Source: an uncultured Emticicia sp.
GTDB lineage: Bacteria; Bacteroidota; Bacteroidia; Cytophagales; Spirosomataceae
DNA: 64,000 bases
Direction of reading: 5' to 3'
Assembly: GCA_937903345.1 (NCBI GenBank)
Contig: CALCZQ010000061.1
Span: forward strand, 46,784-110,783
Numbering within the stretch: the stretch's first letter is position 1; each line of letters starts with the position of its first letter. Of the stretch, positions 6,002-11,878 are shown piece after piece. The notes beneath the pieces are model-generated. The model was given only the letters and a program-made list of their open reading frames with translations, made no database searches and was not told the origin of the DNA. The translations under genes and the position numbers were made by a program.

Positions 6002-7189
6002 TTATTTCCCTTTTTTCTTCAAATTATTTTCTAACAAAAACACGCCATTTTTACTGACAATAACGATGTCGAACTTGCCATCTTTGTTCATATCAGCAAC
6101 CGTTAAGTTCAGCCCTGAACCTGAATCGCTATCAATGATATGTTCAGTCCAATAAGGCTGCTTTTTAGAATCAAACTCAAAATACATCAAAATTGGAGCA
6201 TCGGCATCGCCATTATCTCGACCATTATGAGCCAAATAACGTTTGCCAGTTATGTATTCTTTTTTCCCGTCACCATTCAAATCAGCCATTATTGATGCGT
6301 GCGTTTGGGAGGTGGTTGTGCTTATTGTGTGAGTTTTAAAATCTATTTTTCCATTTTCGTTGATTTGCTCATAATACCAAACTCCCAATGCGTGTGCTGA
6401 TGCCGCCACTACATCATTTTTACCATCGCCATTTACGTCAAAAACTTGCATATGAGAGCATGCATCACCCAAATTTGCAGGATGAAACTCCCAATTCCCA
6501 CCGTTGAGGTCTTTTGTACCTTGATACCAGCCTTCTCGAATAACCACATCTTTTATTCCATCGTGATTAATATCACCATAGCCAATTCCGTGTGAAAACA
6601 TTTCTGTTCCTGCTACTTTTTCTTTTGTCAAATTAAATCTTTTCCACACTGTTTCTCCTTTTTTACTTGGCGATTTTAGCCAAACAATTTGTTTTTTGGC
6701 TTTATCTCCACACAAAATATCCAACCTTCCATCGCCATCAATATCAACAAAGTTGGGTGATTCGTTGGCTATACCTACCGAATCAGCAATAATATGTTTT
6801 TTCCATTCACTTACTTGGTTTTTTTGGGGATTTTCAAACCAAAAAGCCGGTTTTCCTGGATAATCAATAATCACAACGTCGTCCCAGCCATCAAGATTGA
6901 CATCCATTCCAAAGTTAAGAAATGAATTACTGTATTCTTCACGAGGCTTAAAAACTCTTGAAGGAGCCATTTGGTGACGAGTCCAGTGTGGGGCTTCAAA
7001 CCAATAATAACCTGCCACAATATCAAGTTTTCCATCTTTGTTCAAATCAGCCACTGCTCCACCCTCTGATAAAAAATCTCTTGAAAGTATTGTTTTTTTG
7101 AAATCTTGAGCAAACGTAGATAGAGATATTAAACCAATTATGCAACCGCAAAGACCAAATTGTAGGTATGTTTTAAAATAATTTTTCAT
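6002..7189 (-). CDS. Secreted FG-GAP/VCBS-repeat beta-propeller protein
   Basis: Signal peptide (MKNYFKTYLQFGLCGCIIGLISLSTFA-QD) and repeated Ca-binding DxNxDGxxD motifs. ATG 7189 preferred. Confidence 0.85.
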   Translation of the reverse strand: MKNYFKTYLQFGLCGCIIGLISLSTFAQDFKKTILSRDFLSEGGAVADLNKDGKLDIVAGYYWFEAPHWTRHQMAPSRVFKPREEYSNSFLNFGMDVNLDGWDDVVIIDYPGKPAFWFENPQKNQVSEWKKHIIADSVGIANESPNFVDIDGDGRLDILCGDKAKKQIVWLKSPSKKGETVWKRFNLTKEKVAGTEMFSHGIGYGDINHDGIKDVVIREGWYQGTKDLNGGNWEFHPANLGDACSHMQVFDVNGDGKNDVVAASAHALGVWYYEQINENGKIDFKTHTISTTTSQTHASIMADLNGDGKKEYITGKRYLAHNGRDNGDADAPILMYFEFDSKKQPYWTEHIIDSDSGSGLNLTVADMNKDGKFDIVIVSKNGVFLLENNLKKKGK

Positions 7190-7214
7190 TTTATTTGTAA
7201 GTCTAAAATAAGAA

Positions 7215-9977
7215 TTAATGTTTATAAATATGACTTCCACTATCGTTAGTTGAGTTATTGCCGGTTCTTTTTTTCATGTACTCCAAAAACTTAGGAATCG
7301 GACTTTTTTCTGCCATTTGAATCGCTCTTTTGGCATCGACATCAGCTAAAGGCTCCGCAGCATACCAAATCATCAAGGGTAAATTATGATCAGAAATGTC
7401 TTCAGTTTTCTGAGCGAGAGCTTCTACTACATCCCAACGCTCATTTGGCTCAATCCTTTGCATGGCTGATGCCAAATATAGCCGCACCAAAGCTGATTTA
7501 TCGTTTTTAGCCATTACACCAAACTGTTTTAAAACATCAGAAGAAATGGATTTATTTTCGGCCAAAAACTGAATCGCCCAGCTTCTTATATACTCACTTT
7601 GGTTTGAAAGTAAATCAATTAATTCTTTCTCCGAAAAACCATTAGTTACATAAAGTGTCCACAATGCCCTCAGTTTACGGCTAATATCTGGATTTGTATT
7701 CAGAATGACTTTTAGTGCATCATGCACTTGCTTATTTCCACCTCTTTCTTGCAAAATTGTCCTTGCCTGACGCACATACCATTCATTCGGATTTAACTGA
7801 TAATTAACCAATTCTAAGTCAGTTGCTTTGCGTAAATCGGCTTGTACCCATTTATCGGTTTCATAGCTAATCTTAAAAATTCGGCCCATAGTTTTATCGT
7901 GCACATCTGGATTTGAACTATGGCATTGGTTTTTATCATACCAGTCAATTGCAAAAACTGACCCACTTGGGTCATATTTGAAATTGAGCCACTGCGACCA
8001 GCTATCATTCATGGGCATAAAATCTTTTTTGTGCTTACCTACATAGCCTGAGCCTTCACGGGTCAGTTCATCAATATTTAATCTCGCACCATTAATATTA
8101 TTCATAAAAATATTATTGTGGTATTCTTTTGGCCAATTATTTCCACCCAAATATATCATTGCTCCTGCGTGGGCGTGTCCACCACCAGCAGCTGCAGAGC
8201 GAAAATTTCCCGCATGTGGCCCACGGTTACCTAAATAATGTGCATGGTCGGCAATGGTTTTAATGTCATCATATATATATGGATTAAAATGCTTACCCCC
8301 CTGACGTACAAAACGACCACCTTGAATCATGTGGTATAAATGAGGAATAACACAGGCCGTAATAAAAGCGTGGCCATAGTCATTAAAATCCAAGCCCCAC
8401 GGATTACTTGTTCCTTCGGCAAATAACTCGAAAATGTGCTTTGTAGGGTGGTATCGCCAAATACCCGCATTGAGTTTAATGCGTTGGTCGTCGGGTGTTC
8501 CAGGTTTACCAACTTTTGAATGTGTAAATACACCATGCGTGCCATAAAGCCAACCATCTGGACCCCAGCGTAGGCTATTGAGAGTTTCGTGCGTATCTTG
8601 TGTTCCCCACCCATCTAATAGTTTTTGAGGCTCACCAGTTGGCTTATCAGTATTAAAATCAGTCGGAATATACAATAAATAAGGAGCAGCACCAACCCAA
8701 ACACCACCCATACCGACTTCTATACCACTAACAAGGCTTAGTCCTTCAATAAAAACTTTACGGCTATCGAGTGTTCCATCCCCGTTTGTGTCCTCAAAAA
8801 TCAAGATTCTATCACGTCCTTGTCCTTCGGGAGCAGGTACTGGATAAGTATGTCCCTCAACTACCCAAAGTCTTCCACGCCAATCAATAGTAAAAGCGAT
8901 TGGACGTATAATATCTGGTTCGGCTGCTGCCAGTGTAATCTTGAAACCTTTGGGTGGTGTCATGGCTTTTGCGGCCTCAATTCCTGAAAGCCCAGCATTT
9001 ATTACAGGGTCGAGTGGTGGTAAAACTATAATATCTTTTTGAAACAATTCGTTTTGGAAATCTGGTCGTGAGGGATAAAACAAGAAATTATCAAAATTGA
9101 TATGGGCCAATTTATCGTTCGGGATGTATGGTATCTGCGAAATACCACTTTCTTTATCTATGATTCTGATAAAGATAATTTTATTGAGGTATTTTCTTAA
9201 ATCAACCACTACTGGCTGAAGATTGGCTCTCCCTTGCCCAGTTGACTGAAAAATAACCTTTTTTGTATTGGCTAAAACAATTTCTACACGAGTATCTTGC
9301 AAAGCCCCACCCGATACCATAAACGATGCATAAGGCTGAGTTACAGCGAAAGGCACAGACGTCAAAGTGCCTGTAAGTTTATAATTCACAGTTCCACCAG
9401 AACTAAGGAAGTTTTTGCCTTCAAAGCCAATCGTCATATCTTTATCATGAATAGGAGAAGGGTCGGCACTAATAACTGGACTTGTAAAAGCATCTCCGGT
9501 AGCAATCCAATCATGTATATCTCCAGTTTCAAAGTTAAGATTGAGGGGTCTGCCGTTTTTCAAAGGCAATTTACCGACTACAATTTTTTCAATTATTTCT
9601 CCCTCTACAACTTCCAATTTCCCAACCATACCTGCGGCACGATGTCCAGGAACAGTACAATAGTATGTATCGTTTTTATTGGCCACAAAAGTGAGACTCG
9701 ACTTTGAACCTTTTTCAGAAATTGCACCACTTTTAATGCCTAATTTCTCTAAGGCAATATCGTGGGTCATCACTTCTCCGTTGACAATATTGATTCTTAC
9801 TCTAGTTCCTTTTTTTACTTTTAACGTAGGATTTCTTGTGCCATTCTTAAAGAAATAGCCCAACATAGTGGCCTCGAGCGTAAATTCTTTGTCGATTTTT
9901 ATTGTGTCTTGGGCATAGACAGAAGGGAGAATAGTCACCCCCAAAAGCAGTAGCAAGATTAAACGTGATTTATACAT
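7215..9977 (-). CDS. Secreted PVC-type 'membrane-bound dehydrogenase' beta-propeller protein with N-terminal cupredoxin domain and HEAT-like repeats
   Basis: Signal peptide; type-1 Cu motif THD...YYCTVPGHRAAGM; beta-sandwich (NFETG...GTLTSVPF...SFMVSGG); PVC propeller motifs GFKITLAAAEPDIIRPIAFTIDWRGRLWVVE, HETLNSLRWGPDGWLYG and EGTSNPWGLDFNDYG. No CxxCH. Confidence 0.8.
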   Translation of the reverse strand: MYKSRLILLLLLGVTILPSVYAQDTIKIDKEFTLEATMLGYFFKNGTRNPTLKVKKGTRVRINIVNGEVMTHDIALEKLGIKSGAISEKGSKSSLTFVANKNDTYYCTVPGHRAAGMVGKLEVVEGEIIEKIVVGKLPLKNGRPLNLNFETGDIHDWIATGDAFTSPVISADPSPIHDKDMTIGFEGKNFLSSGGTVNYKLTGTLTSVPFAVTQPYASFMVSGGALQDTRVEIVLANTKKVIFQSTGQGRANLQPVVVDLRKYLNKIIFIRIIDKESGISQIPYIPNDKLAHINFDNFLFYPSRPDFQNELFQKDIIVLPPLDPVINAGLSGIEAAKAMTPPKGFKITLAAAEPDIIRPIAFTIDWRGRLWVVEGHTYPVPAPEGQGRDRILIFEDTNGDGTLDSRKVFIEGLSLVSGIEVGMGGVWVGAAPYLLYIPTDFNTDKPTGEPQKLLDGWGTQDTHETLNSLRWGPDGWLYGTHGVFTHSKVGKPGTPDDQRIKLNAGIWRYHPTKHIFELFAEGTSNPWGLDFNDYGHAFITACVIPHLYHMIQGGRFVRQGGKHFNPYIYDDIKTIADHAHYLGNRGPHAGNFRSAAAGGGHAHAGAMIYLGGNNWPKEYHNNIFMNNINGARLNIDELTREGSGYVGKHKKDFMPMNDSWSQWLNFKYDPSGSVFAIDWYDKNQCHSSNPDVHDKTMGRIFKISYETDKWVQADLRKATDLELVNYQLNPNEWYVRQARTILQERGGNKQVHDALKVILNTNPDISRKLRALWTLYVTNGFSEKELIDLLSNQSEYIRSWAIQFLAENKSISSDVLKQFGVMAKNDKSALVRLYLASAMQRIEPNERWDVVEALAQKTEDISDHNLPLMIWYAAEPLADVDAKRAIQMAEKSPIPKFLEYMKKRTGNNSTNDSGSHIYKH

Positions 9978-10044
9978 AGGTATGGTTTTAGGGTTAAGTA
10001 TAGAATTATCATGGCTATCTATGGCTTAGCTCAGGTAACCGTGA

Positions 10045-10677
10045 TTAAGGTAATTCTTGAATATAAATATTTTTGAAGGCAACTTGGGCGGTTCCACCAC
10101 CATGAATTTGTAGACCGATGAACCCAGATTGCGGAATTGTTAAGTCAGATTCGGTATAATCAGTTGTTTGTTTTCCGTTGATGAATATACGAATTCGACG
10201 GTTTTCGGCTCGAATTTCATAGTCGTTCCAATCGTTTAATTTTATATATTTCTTTGTAATTTTTGCATCTTGCCCAGCAATCGTTTTGTTTCTTCGAGAT
10301 TCATCGTAGAGTGTTCCCCAATAATTTTCTCCAAAATCTGCCTGATAGCCAGTCATTTCGTGAGCGGGGTCTTTTAAACGTTTACTACGAAATTGAACGC
10401 CAGAATTGATAAATCCTTTATTTCCCGTAAGTTTTATTTTGAGTTTTAGTATAAAATTAGCGTAACTGCGAGTAGTACATATAAAATCATTGCGTGGCAC
10501 ATCTTTATCTAAAAAGCCACCGATTAAAGCAGCGTTTTCGATACGCCAAATATTAAGGGTGTCTCCCTCCCAGCCTTTAAAAGACTTGCCATCAAAAAGT
10601 CTAACACTTTTCTGTGTAAAATTGAATGCTGAAATTACACCAGCAAGAATTATGAAAGCATACGAAAATATTTTCAT
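10045..10677 (-). CDS. DUF1080 (3-keto-disaccharide hydrolase family) protein, secreted
   Basis: LFDGKSFKGW, NFILKLKIKL, INSGVQFRS, GYQAD, GTLYDESRR, WNDYEI, GFIGLQIH and FKNIYIQEL. Confidence 0.9.
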   Translation of the reverse strand: MKIFSYAFIILAGVISAFNFTQKSVRLFDGKSFKGWEGDTLNIWRIENAALIGGFLDKDVPRNDFICTTRSYANFILKLKIKLTGNKGFINSGVQFRSKRLKDPAHEMTGYQADFGENYWGTLYDESRRNKTIAGQDAKITKKYIKLNDWNDYEIRAENRRIRIFINGKQTTDYTESDLTIPQSGFIGLQIHGGGTAQVAFKNIYIQELP

Positions 10678-10952: not shown

Positions 10953-10983
10953 AAAAAACGCCAATCGTTATGATTGGCGTCTT
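10953..10983 (-). terminator. Intrinsic terminator after the lipoprotein pair
   Basis: Stem ACGCCAATC-gttat-GATTGGCGT, with an A6 on the plus strand giving a minus-strand U tract. Confidence 0.8.
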
Positions 10984-11000
10984 AATCTATAAAAAAAATC

Positions 11001-11402
11001 TTAACGAATACCCGTATCTATCAAAATCTCAAGTTGAGTGGTTTTACTTTTTTCGATAATGAAGGGTCTCGGAAACCCTTGTTTATTAAAAAAGCTCTTT
11101 GGGCTAAAATCAATTTCAAATTCACCAATCGACATATTAGTGCTTTTTAGTACACCATGAGTGCCATTATAGCTCAAAGTTTTCTCTAAAACTACTTTTC
11201 CAGTTTTTGCTTCTTTTATCGTGAAGGTATAGGCTTCATAAACTTTTCTAATATCATCCGCATTTCTATTACATGGTTCAACCGAGCAAAGTGGCCCGAT
11301 AGTAACATTTAAATCTAGCGAACCAATGTCTGGAGTAATAGTCTGGGATGAACAAGAAATTAGTGTTAAGAACATTGTCGATAAAATCATGTAGTATTTC
11401 AT
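11001..11402 (-). CDS. Lipoprotein, GPLC...DTGIR family (paralog A)
   Basis: Lipobox LTLIS-C after ATG 11402; VTIGPLCSVEPC; ends IDTGIR. Confidence 0.75.
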   Translation of the reverse strand: MKYYMILSTMFLTLISCSSQTITPDIGSLDLNVTIGPLCSVEPCNRNADDIRKVYEAYTFTIKEAKTGKVVLEKTLSYNGTHGVLKSTNMSIGEFEIDFSPKSFFNKQGFPRPFIIEKSKTTQLEILIDTGIR

Positions 11403-11449
11403 ATTATTTTTCAATGTAAATAATTTTCTCTCACACAAAATTTTTTTAA

Positions 11450-11878
11450 TCAACGAATACCTGTATCAATAGTAAAAATGACACTTTGATTAGCATTTTT
11501 GGAAATACTTATTGTTTTTTGTAATTGCTCTTTTTGAGATACAGAAAGTAATCCTGTAACTTGAGAATCCACAACCAAACGATAGGCACCTTCAGTCACT
11601 TGAAATGAAAAACTTCCGGTTCTGTCAAGTTTTTTTTGTGTCACGATTATATCTTTATTTGTTTTCAATATGACCGAATATTTGCCATAAATTTCATCCA
11701 TAGCTTGATTAGATAGACCGCACGGATTTCCATCTTTAGAAAGTCCAGACTCTCCGACAGGTATATTCCCACAAAGAGGACCTATACTCACCTTTCCTTC
11801 GATTACGGAAGAAGGTACAAGATCAACCATACTACATCCCGTTAAGAGAATTAAAATTATAAAAACTATATTTTTCAT
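11450..11878 (-). CDS. Lipoprotein, GPLC...DTGIR family (paralog B)
   Basis: Lipobox LLTG-C; VSIGPLCGN...NPC; ends IDTGIR. Confidence 0.78.
   Translation of the reverse strand: MKNIVFIILILLTGCSMVDLVPSSVIEGKVSIGPLCGNIPVGESGLSKDGNPCGLSNQAMDEIYGKYSVILKTNKDIIVTQKKLDRTGSFSFQVTEGAYRLVVDSQVTGLLSVSQKEQLQKTISISKNANQSVIFTIDTGIR

What the first reader, a model, noticed from the sequence alone, without database searches (positions are those of the whole stretch)
6002..10677. DUF1080 + cupredoxin-fused PVC-type dehydrogenase (no heme domain) + FG-GAP: candidate copper-coupled periplasmic glycoside oxidation system
Seen: three co-oriented exported proteins with gaps under 70 nt. The 920-aa protein begins with a cupredoxin carrying a full type-1 Cu ligand set (H...C-x4-H-x4-M in YYCTVPGHRAAGM). 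A beta-sandwich resembling the accessory domain of GH32-type enzymes, the PVC-type propeller and HEAT repeats follow, and there is no CxxCH. Established: PVC-type dehydrogenases normally end in a CxxCH cytochrome c domain, and DUF1080 enzymes act on 3-keto-glycosides. Inference: blue copper replaces heme c as the built-in electron acceptor in an oxidise-then-cleave sugar pathway.
Basis: partly seen in the sequence, partly recalled or inferred. Interest (0 to 1): 0.72.

Follow-up and report, generated by a model that had tools for sequence, protein, structure and literature searches.

The report
Copper-wired sugar-dehydrogenase-like enzyme with two partners
Three exported proteins of an Emticicia bacterium form one conserved unit around an uncharacterised sugar-dehydrogenase-like enzyme whose usual built-in heme electron carrier has been replaced by a blue-copper domain; this is a real, testable variant of a very common family of unknown function, already present but misnamed in databases.

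Summary
Three minus-strand genes sit between an upstream terminator and a convergent gene. They encode a DUF1080 protein, a 920-aa protein and an FG-GAP propeller. The 920-aa protein reads signal peptide, type-1-copper cupredoxin, beta-sandwich, DUF7133/TIGR02604 propeller, HEAT solenoid. It has no CxxCH.

The four copper ligands (H72, C107, H112, M117) are invariant in 78 of 78 orthologs from three phyla. The cupredoxin's nearest solved relative is the N-terminally tethered cupredoxin of Hyphomicrobium nitrite reductase. On a tree, the copper form is one clade nested among heme-bearing relatives.

Among the 150 nearest family representatives, 41 are single chains fused to FG-GAP and/or DUF1080 domains in at least six orders. 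These domains are closer to the window's two partner proteins than any own-genome paralog is. So the three genes are one functional unit.

The propeller folds like PQQ sugar dehydrogenases. However, pqqC was not found in this genome or in five other ortholog-bearing genomes. A conserved His-rich insert with two HxH motifs is unexplained.

"Copper replaces heme" is well supported. "Oxidise-then-cleave sugar pathway" is plausible but unproven. The scan has noted the same architecture on other DNA. Verdict: a new variant of a known, uncharacterised kind, of moderate interest.

The parts
10045..10677 (-). Gene 1: exported DUF1080 / 3-keto-disaccharide-hydrolase-family protein, 210 aa
   Evidence: PF06439, E 1.4e-37. 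The best solved relative is 4jqt, E 2.7e-23. Fused DUF1080 domains of relatives score higher against it (100-119 bits) than the best own-genome paralog does (91 bits).
7215..9977 (-). Gene 2: 920-aa core protein (signal peptide, cupredoxin, beta-sandwich, propeller, HEAT). No CxxCH.
9603..9902 (-). Type-1 copper cupredoxin domain (residues about 26-125). Ligand codons: H72 at 9762-9764, C107 at 9657-9659, H112 at 9642-9644, M117 at 9627-9629.
   Evidence: PF00127 at 32.3 bits, above the cut-off. The family profile hits the N-terminal tethered cupredoxin of H. denitrificans NiR 2dv6 (E 4e-25) and 6tfd. Foldseek's top hits are the same entries. The ligands are invariant in 78/78 orthologs.
9018..9575 (-). 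Beta-sandwich domain of unassigned family (residues about 135-320)
   Evidence: AlphaFold2 strands at 157-301, pLDDT 80-95. No Pfam hit at E 10. hhalign against DUF1080 gives probability 0.4%. Present in only part of the relatives.
7860..8978 (-). DUF7133 / TIGR02604 beta-propeller with an sGDH-like fold (residues 334-706)
   Evidence: TIGR02604 at 359.8 bits and DUF7133 at E 1e-61. The top 17 Foldseek hits are PQQ sugar dehydrogenases or relatives in that fold: sGDH 8re0/1cru/1cq1, 2ism, 3a9g, 3das, AA12 6jt5/6i1t, with TM 0.40-0.57. A 422-aa own-genome ORF bridges Pfam GSDH and DUF7133.
8166..8306 (-). Conserved His-rich insert in the propeller (residues 558-604; H563, H578-A-H580, H588, H601-A-H603). 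Function unexplained.
   Evidence: These residues are invariant in 36 orthologs. H578, H580, H601 and H603 are also shared with heme-bearing subfamily members but not with own-genome paralogs. pLDDT is below 50 in both models.
7254..7820 (-). HEAT-like alpha-solenoid (residues 720-908)
   Evidence: Thirteen helices with pLDDT above 90. Weak HEAT_2 hit here; PF13646 is annotated in many orthologs.
6002..7189 (-). Gene 3: exported FG-GAP/VCBS integrin-like propeller, 395 aa from ATG 7189
   Evidence: FG-GAP_3 at E 1e-36. Its profile hits integrin alpha-V and CRTAC1 propellers only. N-terminal or C-terminal FG-GAP domains of fused relatives are 31-40% identical over the full length, and no own-genome paralog is comparable.
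10955..10983 (-). Terminator-like hairpin ending the preceding unit. It marks the 5' boundary of the three-gene unit.
   Evidence: 12-bp stem followed by a T run. A 277-nt gap follows before the DUF1080 start.

Best explanation
This is a self-contained, Sec-exported three-protein periplasmic redox module.

The core 920-aa enzyme is a six-bladed propeller with the fold of soluble PQQ sugar dehydrogenases, held on a HEAT solenoid. Its relatives carry a C-terminal mono-heme cytochrome c. This clade lost that domain and gained an N-terminal type-1 copper cupredoxin of the kind tethered to Hyphomicrobium copper nitrite reductase.

Most likely mechanism: the propeller dehydrogenates a sugar or glycoside. 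The electrons leave one at a time through the blue copper to a periplasmic or membrane acceptor of the aerobic respiratory chain. The DUF1080 partner processes the keto-sugar product as a lyase/hydratase, as in characterised DUF1080 enzymes. The FG-GAP propeller is a dedicated third subunit, probably for substrate binding or scaffolding.

Shown here:
- the domain anatomy;
- invariance of the copper ligands;
- mutual exclusivity of copper and heme;
- nesting of the copper clade inside heme forms;
- synteny, and fusions of all three components in relatives;
- the fold class of the propeller.

Inferred: the substrate, the site of oxidation, the direction of electron flow, the roles of DUF1080 and FG-GAP, and the cofactor.
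For: Anatomy.

Copper site:
- Four ligands are invariant in 78/78 orthologs of Bacteroidota, Rhodothermota and Acidobacteriota, and none has CxxCH.
- The cupredoxin is homologous to the tethered cupredoxin of 2dv6/6tfd, E 4e-25.

Heme-to-copper swap:
- 95/150 nearest representatives have one CxxCH, and none has both modules.
- 6/8 own-genome paralogs have CxxCH. The other two carry cupredoxins at opposite ends.
- The copper clade has support 99 and sits inside a 20-row clade (support 96) that contains heme-bearing fusions.

One unit:
- DUF1080 and FG-GAP are the only neighbours that recur widely across the 80 loci: 54 of 80. At least one is adjacent in 44 of 61 loci with full flanks.
- 41/150 representatives are fusions with FG-GAP and/or DUF1080 in at least six domain orders. 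Seven carry both, for example P0126 = FG-GAP, DUF7133, HEAT, cytochrome c, DUF1080.
- The fused domains are the closest relatives of the window's partner proteins.

Dehydrogenase-like propeller: with a sequence bridge to Pfam GSDH.

Carbohydrate context:
- DUF1080 enzymes are 3-keto-glucoside lyases/hydratases (10.1101/2024.03.25.586180). They partner with periplasmic cytochrome-c-linked lactose 3-dehydrogenase (PMC9007349).
- A heme-type family member released glucose from lactose (PMC5342196).
- SusC-like genes lie next to 9 ortholog loci, SusD genes next to 4 and GFO oxidoreductases next to 4.
Against: - No substrate, transporter or sugar regulator is linked in this window.
- DUF1080 is adjacent in only 29/61 full-flank loci and in 0/10 Acidobacteriota loci.
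- pqqC was not found in the own genome (99.8% complete) or in 5 ortholog-bearing genomes. The same search finds it in 5/81 Acidobacteriota.
- No sequence-level match to any solved PQQ enzyme, and no Pfam GSDH hit.
- A subfamily-specific set of invariant His/Cys residues, including two HxH motifs in an unmodelled insert, points to a different cofactor.
- In its closest solved homolog the tethered cupredoxin feeds electrons into the enzyme, not out of it.
- DUF1080 also includes non-keto enzymes, for example an endo-xanthanase cited in PMC9007349.
Confidence: 0.5

Rival explanations
1. The propeller is a metalloenzyme, not a PQQ enzyme. The subfamily-specific invariant histidines and cysteine (H463, H510, H546, HAH 578-580, HAH 601-603, C685-H686) would bind a copper, iron or zinc centre. 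The cupredoxin (or cytochrome c in relatives) would deliver electrons into it, as CuA does in nitrous oxide reductase or the tethered cupredoxin does in nitrite reductase. The enzyme would then reduce O2 or another small acceptor, or carry out an oxidative cleavage.
For: The His/Cys set is kept in 45-51 of 51 heme-bearing subfamily members and in all copper orthologs, but not in 7 own-genome paralogs. Two HxH motifs lie in a 47-residue insert that AlphaFold2 cannot place. pqqC was not found. The closest cupredoxin homolog is an electron-input domain (PMC7201279).
Against: No metal-chaperone gene is a conserved neighbour. The fold matches sugar dehydrogenases best. The DUF1080 and SusC/D context fits carbohydrates.
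Confidence: 0.2
2. The propeller is a non-redox glycoside-cleaving enzyme (hydrolase or lyase), as claimed for Lac161_ORF7. The cupredoxin would then have a structural, sensing or regulatory role rather than carrying catalytic electrons.
For: Purified Lac161_ORF7 (TIGR02604 + HEAT + cytochrome c) released glucose from lactose with Km 1.8 mM and kcat 13.2 per s, with no added electron acceptor (PMC5342196). Six-bladed propellers of this fold also include lactonases and lyases (ranks 20-49).
Against: Strict conservation of a complete type-1 copper site, and the one-for-one exchange with cytochrome c across the family, are hard to explain without electron transfer. The single report used a coupled glucose-oxidase assay, and all three candidates tested were positive. 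It has not been followed up in the literature searched.
Confidence: 0.08
3. The N-terminal cupredoxin serves copper handling or resistance (CopI-like) rather than electron transfer.
For: A weak NCBIfam hit to CopI (E 6e-5, 22.9 bits against a cut-off of 280).
Against: That hit is far below its cut-off. The domain matches the nitrite-reductase tethered cupredoxin at E 4e-25. It occupies the role of cytochrome c in a family of redox-domain fusions.
Confidence: 0.04
4. The three genes are neighbours by chance and do not work together.
For: 17 of 61 full-flank ortholog loci have neither partner adjacent.
Against: DUF1080 and FG-GAP are the only neighbours that recur widely. Both are fused to the enzyme in 41/150 relatives in several orders, and those fused domains are their closest homologs. 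DUF1080-FG-GAP fusion ORFs lie next to the enzyme in L077, L089 and L090.
Confidence: 0.02

Closest known systems
TIGR02604/TIGR02603 'PVC-type heme-binding CxxCH protein' (Pfam DUF7133 + HEAT + cytochrome c), including Lac161_ORF7 (PMC5342196)
   Same: The propeller scores 359.8 bits against TIGR02604. It has the same HEAT solenoid, the same export and the same subfamily His/Cys signature. It nests inside heme-bearing members on the tree.
   Different: It has no CxxCH and no cytochrome c domain. A type-1 copper cupredoxin sits at the opposite (N-terminal) end. The FG-GAP and DUF1080 modules are separate genes rather than fused domains.
Three-domain copper nitrite reductases: N-terminal cupredoxin-tethered HdNiR (2dv6, 6tfd; PMC7201279) versus C-terminal cytochrome-c-tethered NiR (PMC13324648)
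   Same: The cupredoxin is homologous (E 4e-25, 34% identity over 120 columns) with the identical C-x4-H-x4-M ligand loop. The family-level pattern is also the same: an N-terminal cupredoxin or a C-terminal cytochrome c as alternative tethered redox partners.
   Different: The catalytic core is unrelated: a propeller with HEAT repeats, not the two-cupredoxin T1/T2 copper NiR core. The direction of electron flow here is unknown.
Soluble PQQ glucose / aldose sugar dehydrogenases (sGDH 1cq1/1c9u, 3das, 3a9g, 2ism) and fungal AA12 pyranose dehydrogenase, described from memory as fused to a cytochrome domain (6jt5 is the PQQ domain alone)
   Same: These are the best structural matches of the propeller. 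There is remote sequence kinship through a protein that bridges GSDH and DUF7133. From memory, the fungal AA12 enzyme likewise carries a built-in electron-transfer domain.
   Different: No sequence-level hit. pqqC was not found in the genome. The protein has an extra His-rich insert and a HEAT solenoid.
Periplasmic lactose/glycoside 3-dehydrogenase LacABC (FAD + cytochrome c) with a DUF1080 3-ketoglycoside-processing enzyme (PMC9007349), and the Bacteroides/Alistipes 3-keto pathway (10.1101/2024.03.25.586180)
   Same: A periplasmic dehydrogenase wired to a one-electron carrier and genetically linked to a DUF1080 protein.
   Different: The dehydrogenase here is a propeller, not an FAD GMC or GFO/NAD enzyme. 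No sugar-phosphate-isomerase-like lyase or reductase is in the unit. An FG-GAP partner is added. No 3-keto intermediate has been shown.

Membership tests
Cupredoxin, type-1 (blue) copper protein (PF00127) | Profile match above the curated cut-off | tested here: met
   32.3 bits against a cut-off of 21.2, residues 51-123. The family profile hits 2dv6 at E 4e-25.
Cupredoxin, type-1 (blue) copper protein (PF00127) | His...Cys-x(n)-His-x(n)-Met ligand set | tested here: met
   H72, C107, H112 and M117 are present and invariant in 78/78 orthologs. They align with the ligand loop of HdNiR.
Cupredoxin, type-1 (blue) copper protein (PF00127) | Greek-key beta-sandwich fold | tested here: met
   AlphaFold2 strands at 30-124, pLDDT about 85-92. 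Foldseek's top hits are cupredoxin domains.
Cupredoxin, type-1 (blue) copper protein (PF00127) | Binds copper with a ~600 nm band and narrow EPR hyperfine splitting | not testable with these tools
   Needs purified protein.
PVC-type heme-binding CxxCH protein (TIGR02604 N-terminal domain + TIGR02603 heme domain) | TIGR02604 / DUF7133 propeller domain | tested here: met
   359.8 bits against a cut-off of 122.2; DUF7133 at E 1e-61.
PVC-type heme-binding CxxCH protein (TIGR02604 N-terminal domain + TIGR02603 heme domain) | CxxCH heme c attachment motif / cytochrome c domain | tested here: not met
   No C..CH in the 920 aa or in 78 orthologs. No cytochrome c family hit. The database name given to orthologs is therefore a misnomer.
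PQQ-dependent soluble glucose/sorbosone dehydrogenase (PF07995 GSDH) | Six-bladed sGDH-type propeller fold | tested here: met
   The top 17 Foldseek hits are sGDH-fold (PQQ sugar dehydrogenase family) entries, E 7e-9 to 4e-7, TM 0.40-0.57. Model pLDDT is only 66.7.
PQQ-dependent soluble glucose/sorbosone dehydrogenase (PF07995 GSDH) | Profile match to GSDH | tested here: not met
   No GSDH hit at E up to 10 and no PDB sequence hit. The only link is indirect, through a bridging ORF.
PQQ-dependent soluble glucose/sorbosone dehydrogenase (PF07995 GSDH) | PQQ available and PQQ/Ca-binding residues present | tested here: inconclusive
   pqqC was not found in the own genome or in 5 ortholog-bearing genomes, with a positive control elsewhere. 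Scavenging cannot be excluded. Residues could not be mapped without model coordinates.
DUF1080 / 3-keto-disaccharide hydrolase family (PF06439) | Profile match above the cut-off | tested here: met
   130 bits against a cut-off of 26.8.
DUF1080 / 3-keto-disaccharide hydrolase family (PF06439) | 3-keto-glycoside lyase/hydratase activity | not testable with these tools
   Known for BT2157 and AL2/BT2 only. The family also holds other activities.
FG-GAP / VCBS integrin-like propeller (PF13517, PF01839) | Repeated FG-GAP Ca-binding blades | tested here: met
   FG-GAP_3 at E 1e-36 and FG-GAP at E 4e-21. The profile hits integrin alpha-V and CRTAC1.
LacABC-type periplasmic glycoside 3-dehydrogenase system | FAD-dependent GMC dehydrogenase subunit with a cytochrome c subunit | tested here: not met
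   No GMC, FAD or cytochrome c domain in the three proteins or their neighbours.

The most novel reading that the evidence does not exclude
The propeller of this subfamily, in both copper- and heme-wired members, is not a PQQ enzyme at all. It would hold a previously undescribed His-ligated metal centre, built from two HxH motifs plus H463, H510, H546 and C685-H686. That would define a new class of periplasmic metallo-oxidoreductase that works with dedicated FG-GAP and DUF1080 subunits and is wired through either cytochrome c or blue copper.
Probability: 0.2. Interest if true: 0.8.

Novelty: new variant of a known kind. Interest (0 to 1): 0.5.

Why it matters
TIGR02604/DUF7133 proteins are very abundant: 13,029 representatives at 50% identity, and eight paralogs in this one genome. 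Apart from one report of lactose cleavage, no function has been assigned to them.

This work gives a concrete three-component definition of one subfamily (enzyme, FG-GAP, DUF1080), supported by fusion proteins. It shows that the built-in redox carrier is interchangeable between heme c and blue copper, in parallel with tethered nitrite reductases. It also raises a sharp cofactor question, since pqqC was not found and a conserved His-rich insert is unexplained.

The copper form needs no heme c maturation machinery. That should make it an easier entry point for expressing and characterising the whole family.

The work also flags a propagated annotation error: heme-less proteins are named "heme-binding CxxCH protein".

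Tried and rejected
1. GH32-like or concanavalin-like identity of the beta-sandwich. Pfam at E 10 found nothing and hhalign against DUF1080 gave probability 0.4%. Left unassigned.

2. Sequence-level link of the propeller to solved PQQ enzymes. The profile search of the PDB found nothing at E 10, so only fold-level similarity stands. The catalytic-residue correspondence to sGDH that I recalled from memory could not be tested and is not used as evidence.

3. hhalign of the propeller against the own-genome GSDH-like ORF covered blades 1-4 only. It did not place a His at the H463 column, so it says nothing about catalysis.

4. Spatial clustering of the invariant His/Cys residues. Model coordinates are not exposed, so this was not testable.

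6. Sigma-70 promoter scan. It found fewer sites than in shuffled sequence, and Bacteroidota promoters are not covered by it, so it was uninformative. Only the upstream terminator was used.

7. Literature searches for DUF7133, TIGR02604, PVC-type heme-binding and DUF1080+FG-GAP+cytochrome c found only PMC5342196 and a genome description.

8. A generic link of all TIGR02604 paralogs to DUF1080 was rejected. In the own genome only this gene and one distant relative have an adjacent DUF1080.

9. CopI-like copper resistance was rejected: 22.9 bits against a cut-off of 280.
Full report
**What is there.** Window 6002-10677 holds three minus-strand ORFs.
- Gene 1 (10677-10045, 210 aa) is a DUF1080 / PF06439 protein, E 1e-37.
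- Gene 2 (9977-7215, 920 aa) matches PF00127 Copper-bind at residues 51-123 (32.3 bits, cut-off 21.2). It matches DUF7133 at 334-705 (E 1e-61) and TIGR02604 at 359.8 bits (cut-off 122.2), with a weak HEAT_2 hit.
- Gene 3 is an FG-GAP/VCBS propeller, E 1e-36. Its real start is ATG 7189, which leaves a 25-nt gap. The GTG at 7240 would overlap gene 2, and orthologs show 17-26 nt gaps.

The gene 1 to gene 2 gap is 67 nt. All three proteins begin with a Sec-type hydrophobic leader without a twin arginine. This was read directly from the sequences; no predictor was available.

A 12-bp terminator hairpin at 10983-10955 closes the preceding gene, and a 277-nt spacer follows. Downstream, the next gene is convergent. 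The three genes therefore form a discrete unit.

The window neighbours are a LytTR two-component pair, two small lipoproteins, a BNR/sortilin protein and rnpA. None is a sugar transporter or a Sus gene. The closest database relatives name the organism as Emticicia, 94% identical to E. aquatilis.

**Anatomy of the 920-aa protein.** AlphaFold2 on a 36-ortholog alignment gave mean pLDDT 76.9. The model shows:
- a cupredoxin at 30-124;
- a second all-beta sandwich at about 140-301 (pLDDT 80-95);
- a propeller at 345-705;
- thirteen helices at 720-908 (pLDDT above 90).

There is no C..CH anywhere in the protein. The sandwich has no Pfam hit even at E 10 and no profile similarity to DUF1080.

**The copper site is real by every computational test.**
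- The ligand string runs from H72 to M117.
- In 78 full-length orthologs, H72, C107, H112 and M117 are invariant, together with P110 and G111 of the ligand loop.
- A profile of the family hits the N-terminal, tethered cupredoxin domain of Hyphomicrobium denitrificans nitrite reductase (2dv6, E 4e-25; 6tfd, E 6e-24). The same C-x4-H-x4-M loop aligns.
- Foldseek puts these entries first.

**Copper stands where heme stands in relatives.**
- The own genome has eight TIGR02604 paralogs. Six have one CxxCH about 120 residues from the C-terminus. Two have none, and both of these carry a cupredoxin.
- One is the window protein, with the cupredoxin at the N-terminus. The other is a 1227-aa protein reading ThuA, DUF7133, HEAT, CARDB and a C-terminal azurin-like domain. 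The swap therefore happened at least twice, in different positions.
- An exhaustive search found 13,029 representatives at 50% identity. Of the best 150, 95 have a single CxxCH and 4 have the copper loop (one full-length cluster plus fragments). None has both.
- On a FastTree phylogeny of the propeller-HEAT part, rooted on own-genome paralogs, the nine copper rows form one clade (support 99). It lies inside a 20-row clade (support 96) whose other members include heme-bearing proteins.
- FastTree local supports are weaker than bootstraps, so I treat "derived from a heme-bearing ancestor" as likely, not proven.

**The three genes are one unit.**
- Eighty ortholog loci were fetched. They come from Cytophagales, Flavobacteriales, Chitinophagales, Sphingobacteriales, Rhodothermales and Acidobacteriota, at 56-95% identity.
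- Clustering all neighbouring ORFs showed that DUF1080 and FG-GAP are the only widely recurrent neighbours, in 54 of 80 loci.
- Among 61 loci with at least 2.5 kb on both sides, FG-GAP is adjacent in 41, DUF1080 in 29, both in 26 and neither in 17. Linkage is strong in Cytophagales (34/38 have at least one partner). It is weak in Acidobacteriota (3/10, FG-GAP only).
- In L077, L089 and L090 a single ORF fusing DUF1080 and FG-GAP lies next to the enzyme.
- Most tellingly, 41 of the 150 nearest representatives are single chains that include FG-GAP and/or DUF1080 domains, in at least six different orders. Seven have both. For example, P0126 (1741 aa) reads FG-GAP, DUF7133, HEAT, cytochrome c, DUF1080.
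- These fused domains are the nearest homologs of the window's partner proteins. The FG-GAP domains are 31-40% identical over the full length, with no comparable own-genome paralog. The fused DUF1080 domains score 100-119 bits, against 91 for the best own paralog.
- The window cluster is thus the split, copper-wired version of a fused, heme-wired enzyme.

**What the propeller is.**
- A propeller-only model (pLDDT 66.7) matches PQQ-dependent soluble sugar dehydrogenases best: sGDH, TTHA0570, 3a9g, 3das and fungal AA12. E-values run from 7e-9 to 4e-7 and TM-scores from 0.40 to 0.57. Lactonases, DFPase and lyases of the same fold come lower.
- There is no sequence-level match to any solved structure and no Pfam GSDH hit.
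- A 422-aa own-genome ORF hits both GSDH (38.9 bits) and DUF7133 (26 bits), and aligns to the propeller profile at E 1e-5. This supports remote common ancestry.

**Unexplained cofactor.**
- pqqC was not found in the own genome (99.8% complete) or in five ortholog-bearing genomes of three phyla. The same search finds it in 5 of 81 Acidobacteriota, which serves as a positive control.
- The subfamily, copper and heme members alike, keeps H463, H510, H546, H578-A-H580, H601-A-H603 and C685-H686. The seven own-genome paralogs lack these residues.
- The two HxH motifs lie in a 47-residue invariant insert (558-604) that both models leave below pLDDT 50.
- This fits scavenged PQQ poorly. It leaves open a His-bound metal centre or another cofactor. 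I could not test spatial clustering because model coordinates are not exposed.

**Carbohydrate context is indirect.**
- DUF1080 genes accompany the periplasmic, cytochrome-c-linked lactose 3-dehydrogenase LacABC (PMC9007349). The same paper notes a DUF1080 endo-xanthanase, so the family is not limited to keto-sugar chemistry.
- One heme-type TIGR02604 protein, Lac161_ORF7, released glucose from lactose when purified, with Km 1.8 mM and kcat 13.2 per s in a coupled glucose-oxidase assay (PMC5342196).
- In subsets of ortholog loci the neighbours include SusC-like receptors (9 loci), SusD (4), GFO/IDH/MocA oxidoreductases (4) and a bona fide GSDH (5).
- The second copper paralog is fused to ThuA and lies 2.6 kb from GFO and xylose-isomerase-like genes.

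**Mechanism.** I commit, at 0.5 confidence, to a periplasmic sugar or glycoside dehydrogenase module. In it, electrons leave through the blue copper, DUF1080 processes the oxidised product and FG-GAP is a dedicated third subunit.

The rivals are:
- a His-ligated metal enzyme that is fed electrons by the cupredoxin, as in its nitrite-reductase homolog (0.2);
- a non-redox glycosidase (0.08);
- a copper-handling role for the cupredoxin (0.04);
- chance adjacency of the genes (0.02, effectively refuted).

**Distribution and novelty.**
- The N-terminal cupredoxin-sandwich module occurs in about 9 of 400 evenly sampled Bacteroidota genomes, and matches fall in 8 of 180 genera. One further genome carries it split over two ORFs.
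- It is near-universal in the Spirosomataceae records retrieved.
- The sequences are public and their Pfam content is precomputed. NCBI and UniRef nevertheless name them "PVC-type heme-binding CxxCH protein", although none has CxxCH.
- No paper in the library describes the architecture.
- The scan has noted the same or sister architectures on other DNA: e1-5075548, e1-5035201, e1-2434732, e1-3334086 and e1-5148155. Those are AI notes and were not used as evidence.
- Verdict: a new variant of a known but uncharacterised kind, of moderate interest.

Noticed in passing
Own genome, G000:C51:181537-185220 (minus strand; L093:5038-8721), outside the window: A second heme-less TIGR02604 paralog of 1227 aa reads ThuA, DUF7133, HEAT, CARDB and a C-terminal azurin-like cupredoxin (CTFPGHWSIM). 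GFO/IDH/MocA and xylose-isomerase-like TIM genes lie 2.6 kb away, and a pectinesterase/esterase gene lies downstream. This is an independent heme-to-copper swap at the other end of the protein.
   Followed up: partly
window 8166-8306 (minus strand), residues 558-604 of the 920-aa protein: An invariant His-rich insert with two H-A-H motifs is left unmodelled by AlphaFold2. It is shared with heme-bearing subfamily members but absent from other TIGR02604 subfamilies. pqqC was not found in the genome, so the cofactor is unknown.
   Followed up: partly
Database names of orthologs P0006, P0010, P0019 and others: NCBI and UniRef call these proteins 'PVC-type heme-binding CxxCH protein', although none of 78 orthologs has a CxxCH motif. 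The name is a propagated annotation error.
   Followed up: yes
Own genome, G000:C51:100723-101991 (L094:424-1692, minus strand): A 422-aa ORF hits both Pfam GSDH (38.9 bits) and DUF7133 (26 bits). It is a sequence bridge between PQQ sugar dehydrogenases and the PVC-type propeller.
   Followed up: partly
G400:C1:2770293-2773346 (a Bacteroidota genome): A split form of the enzyme. The cupredoxin is on a 430-aa ORF, and the sandwich and propeller are on a 903-aa ORF about 2 kb downstream.
   Followed up: no
L019 (labelled Cyanobium MAG) and L062 (labelled Chitinophaga pinensis MAG): Both contigs carry Emticicia-like loci at 76% identity with the same three-gene order. They are probably mis-binned contigs.
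   Followed up: no
L055:5926-8763: The ortholog is broken into three ORFs in a MAG assembly. This looks like frameshift errors rather than a pseudogene, but it was not checked.
   Followed up: no
Own genome, G000:C53:64358-65134 and the 904-aa ORF within G000:C53:65264-69043 (L011): Another DUF1080 gene lies about 130 nt from the locus fetched around a distant TIGR02604-like 904-aa ORF. This suggests that DUF1080 pairing recurs in a second subfamily.
   Followed up: no
window 9297-9707 (+): A 136-aa ORF lies antisense inside the 920-aa gene. It is most likely spurious.
   Followed up: no
window 11001-11878 (-): Two tandem small ORFs have no Pfam hit. They end at the strong terminator at 10983-10955 and are not part of the unit.
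   Followed up: no
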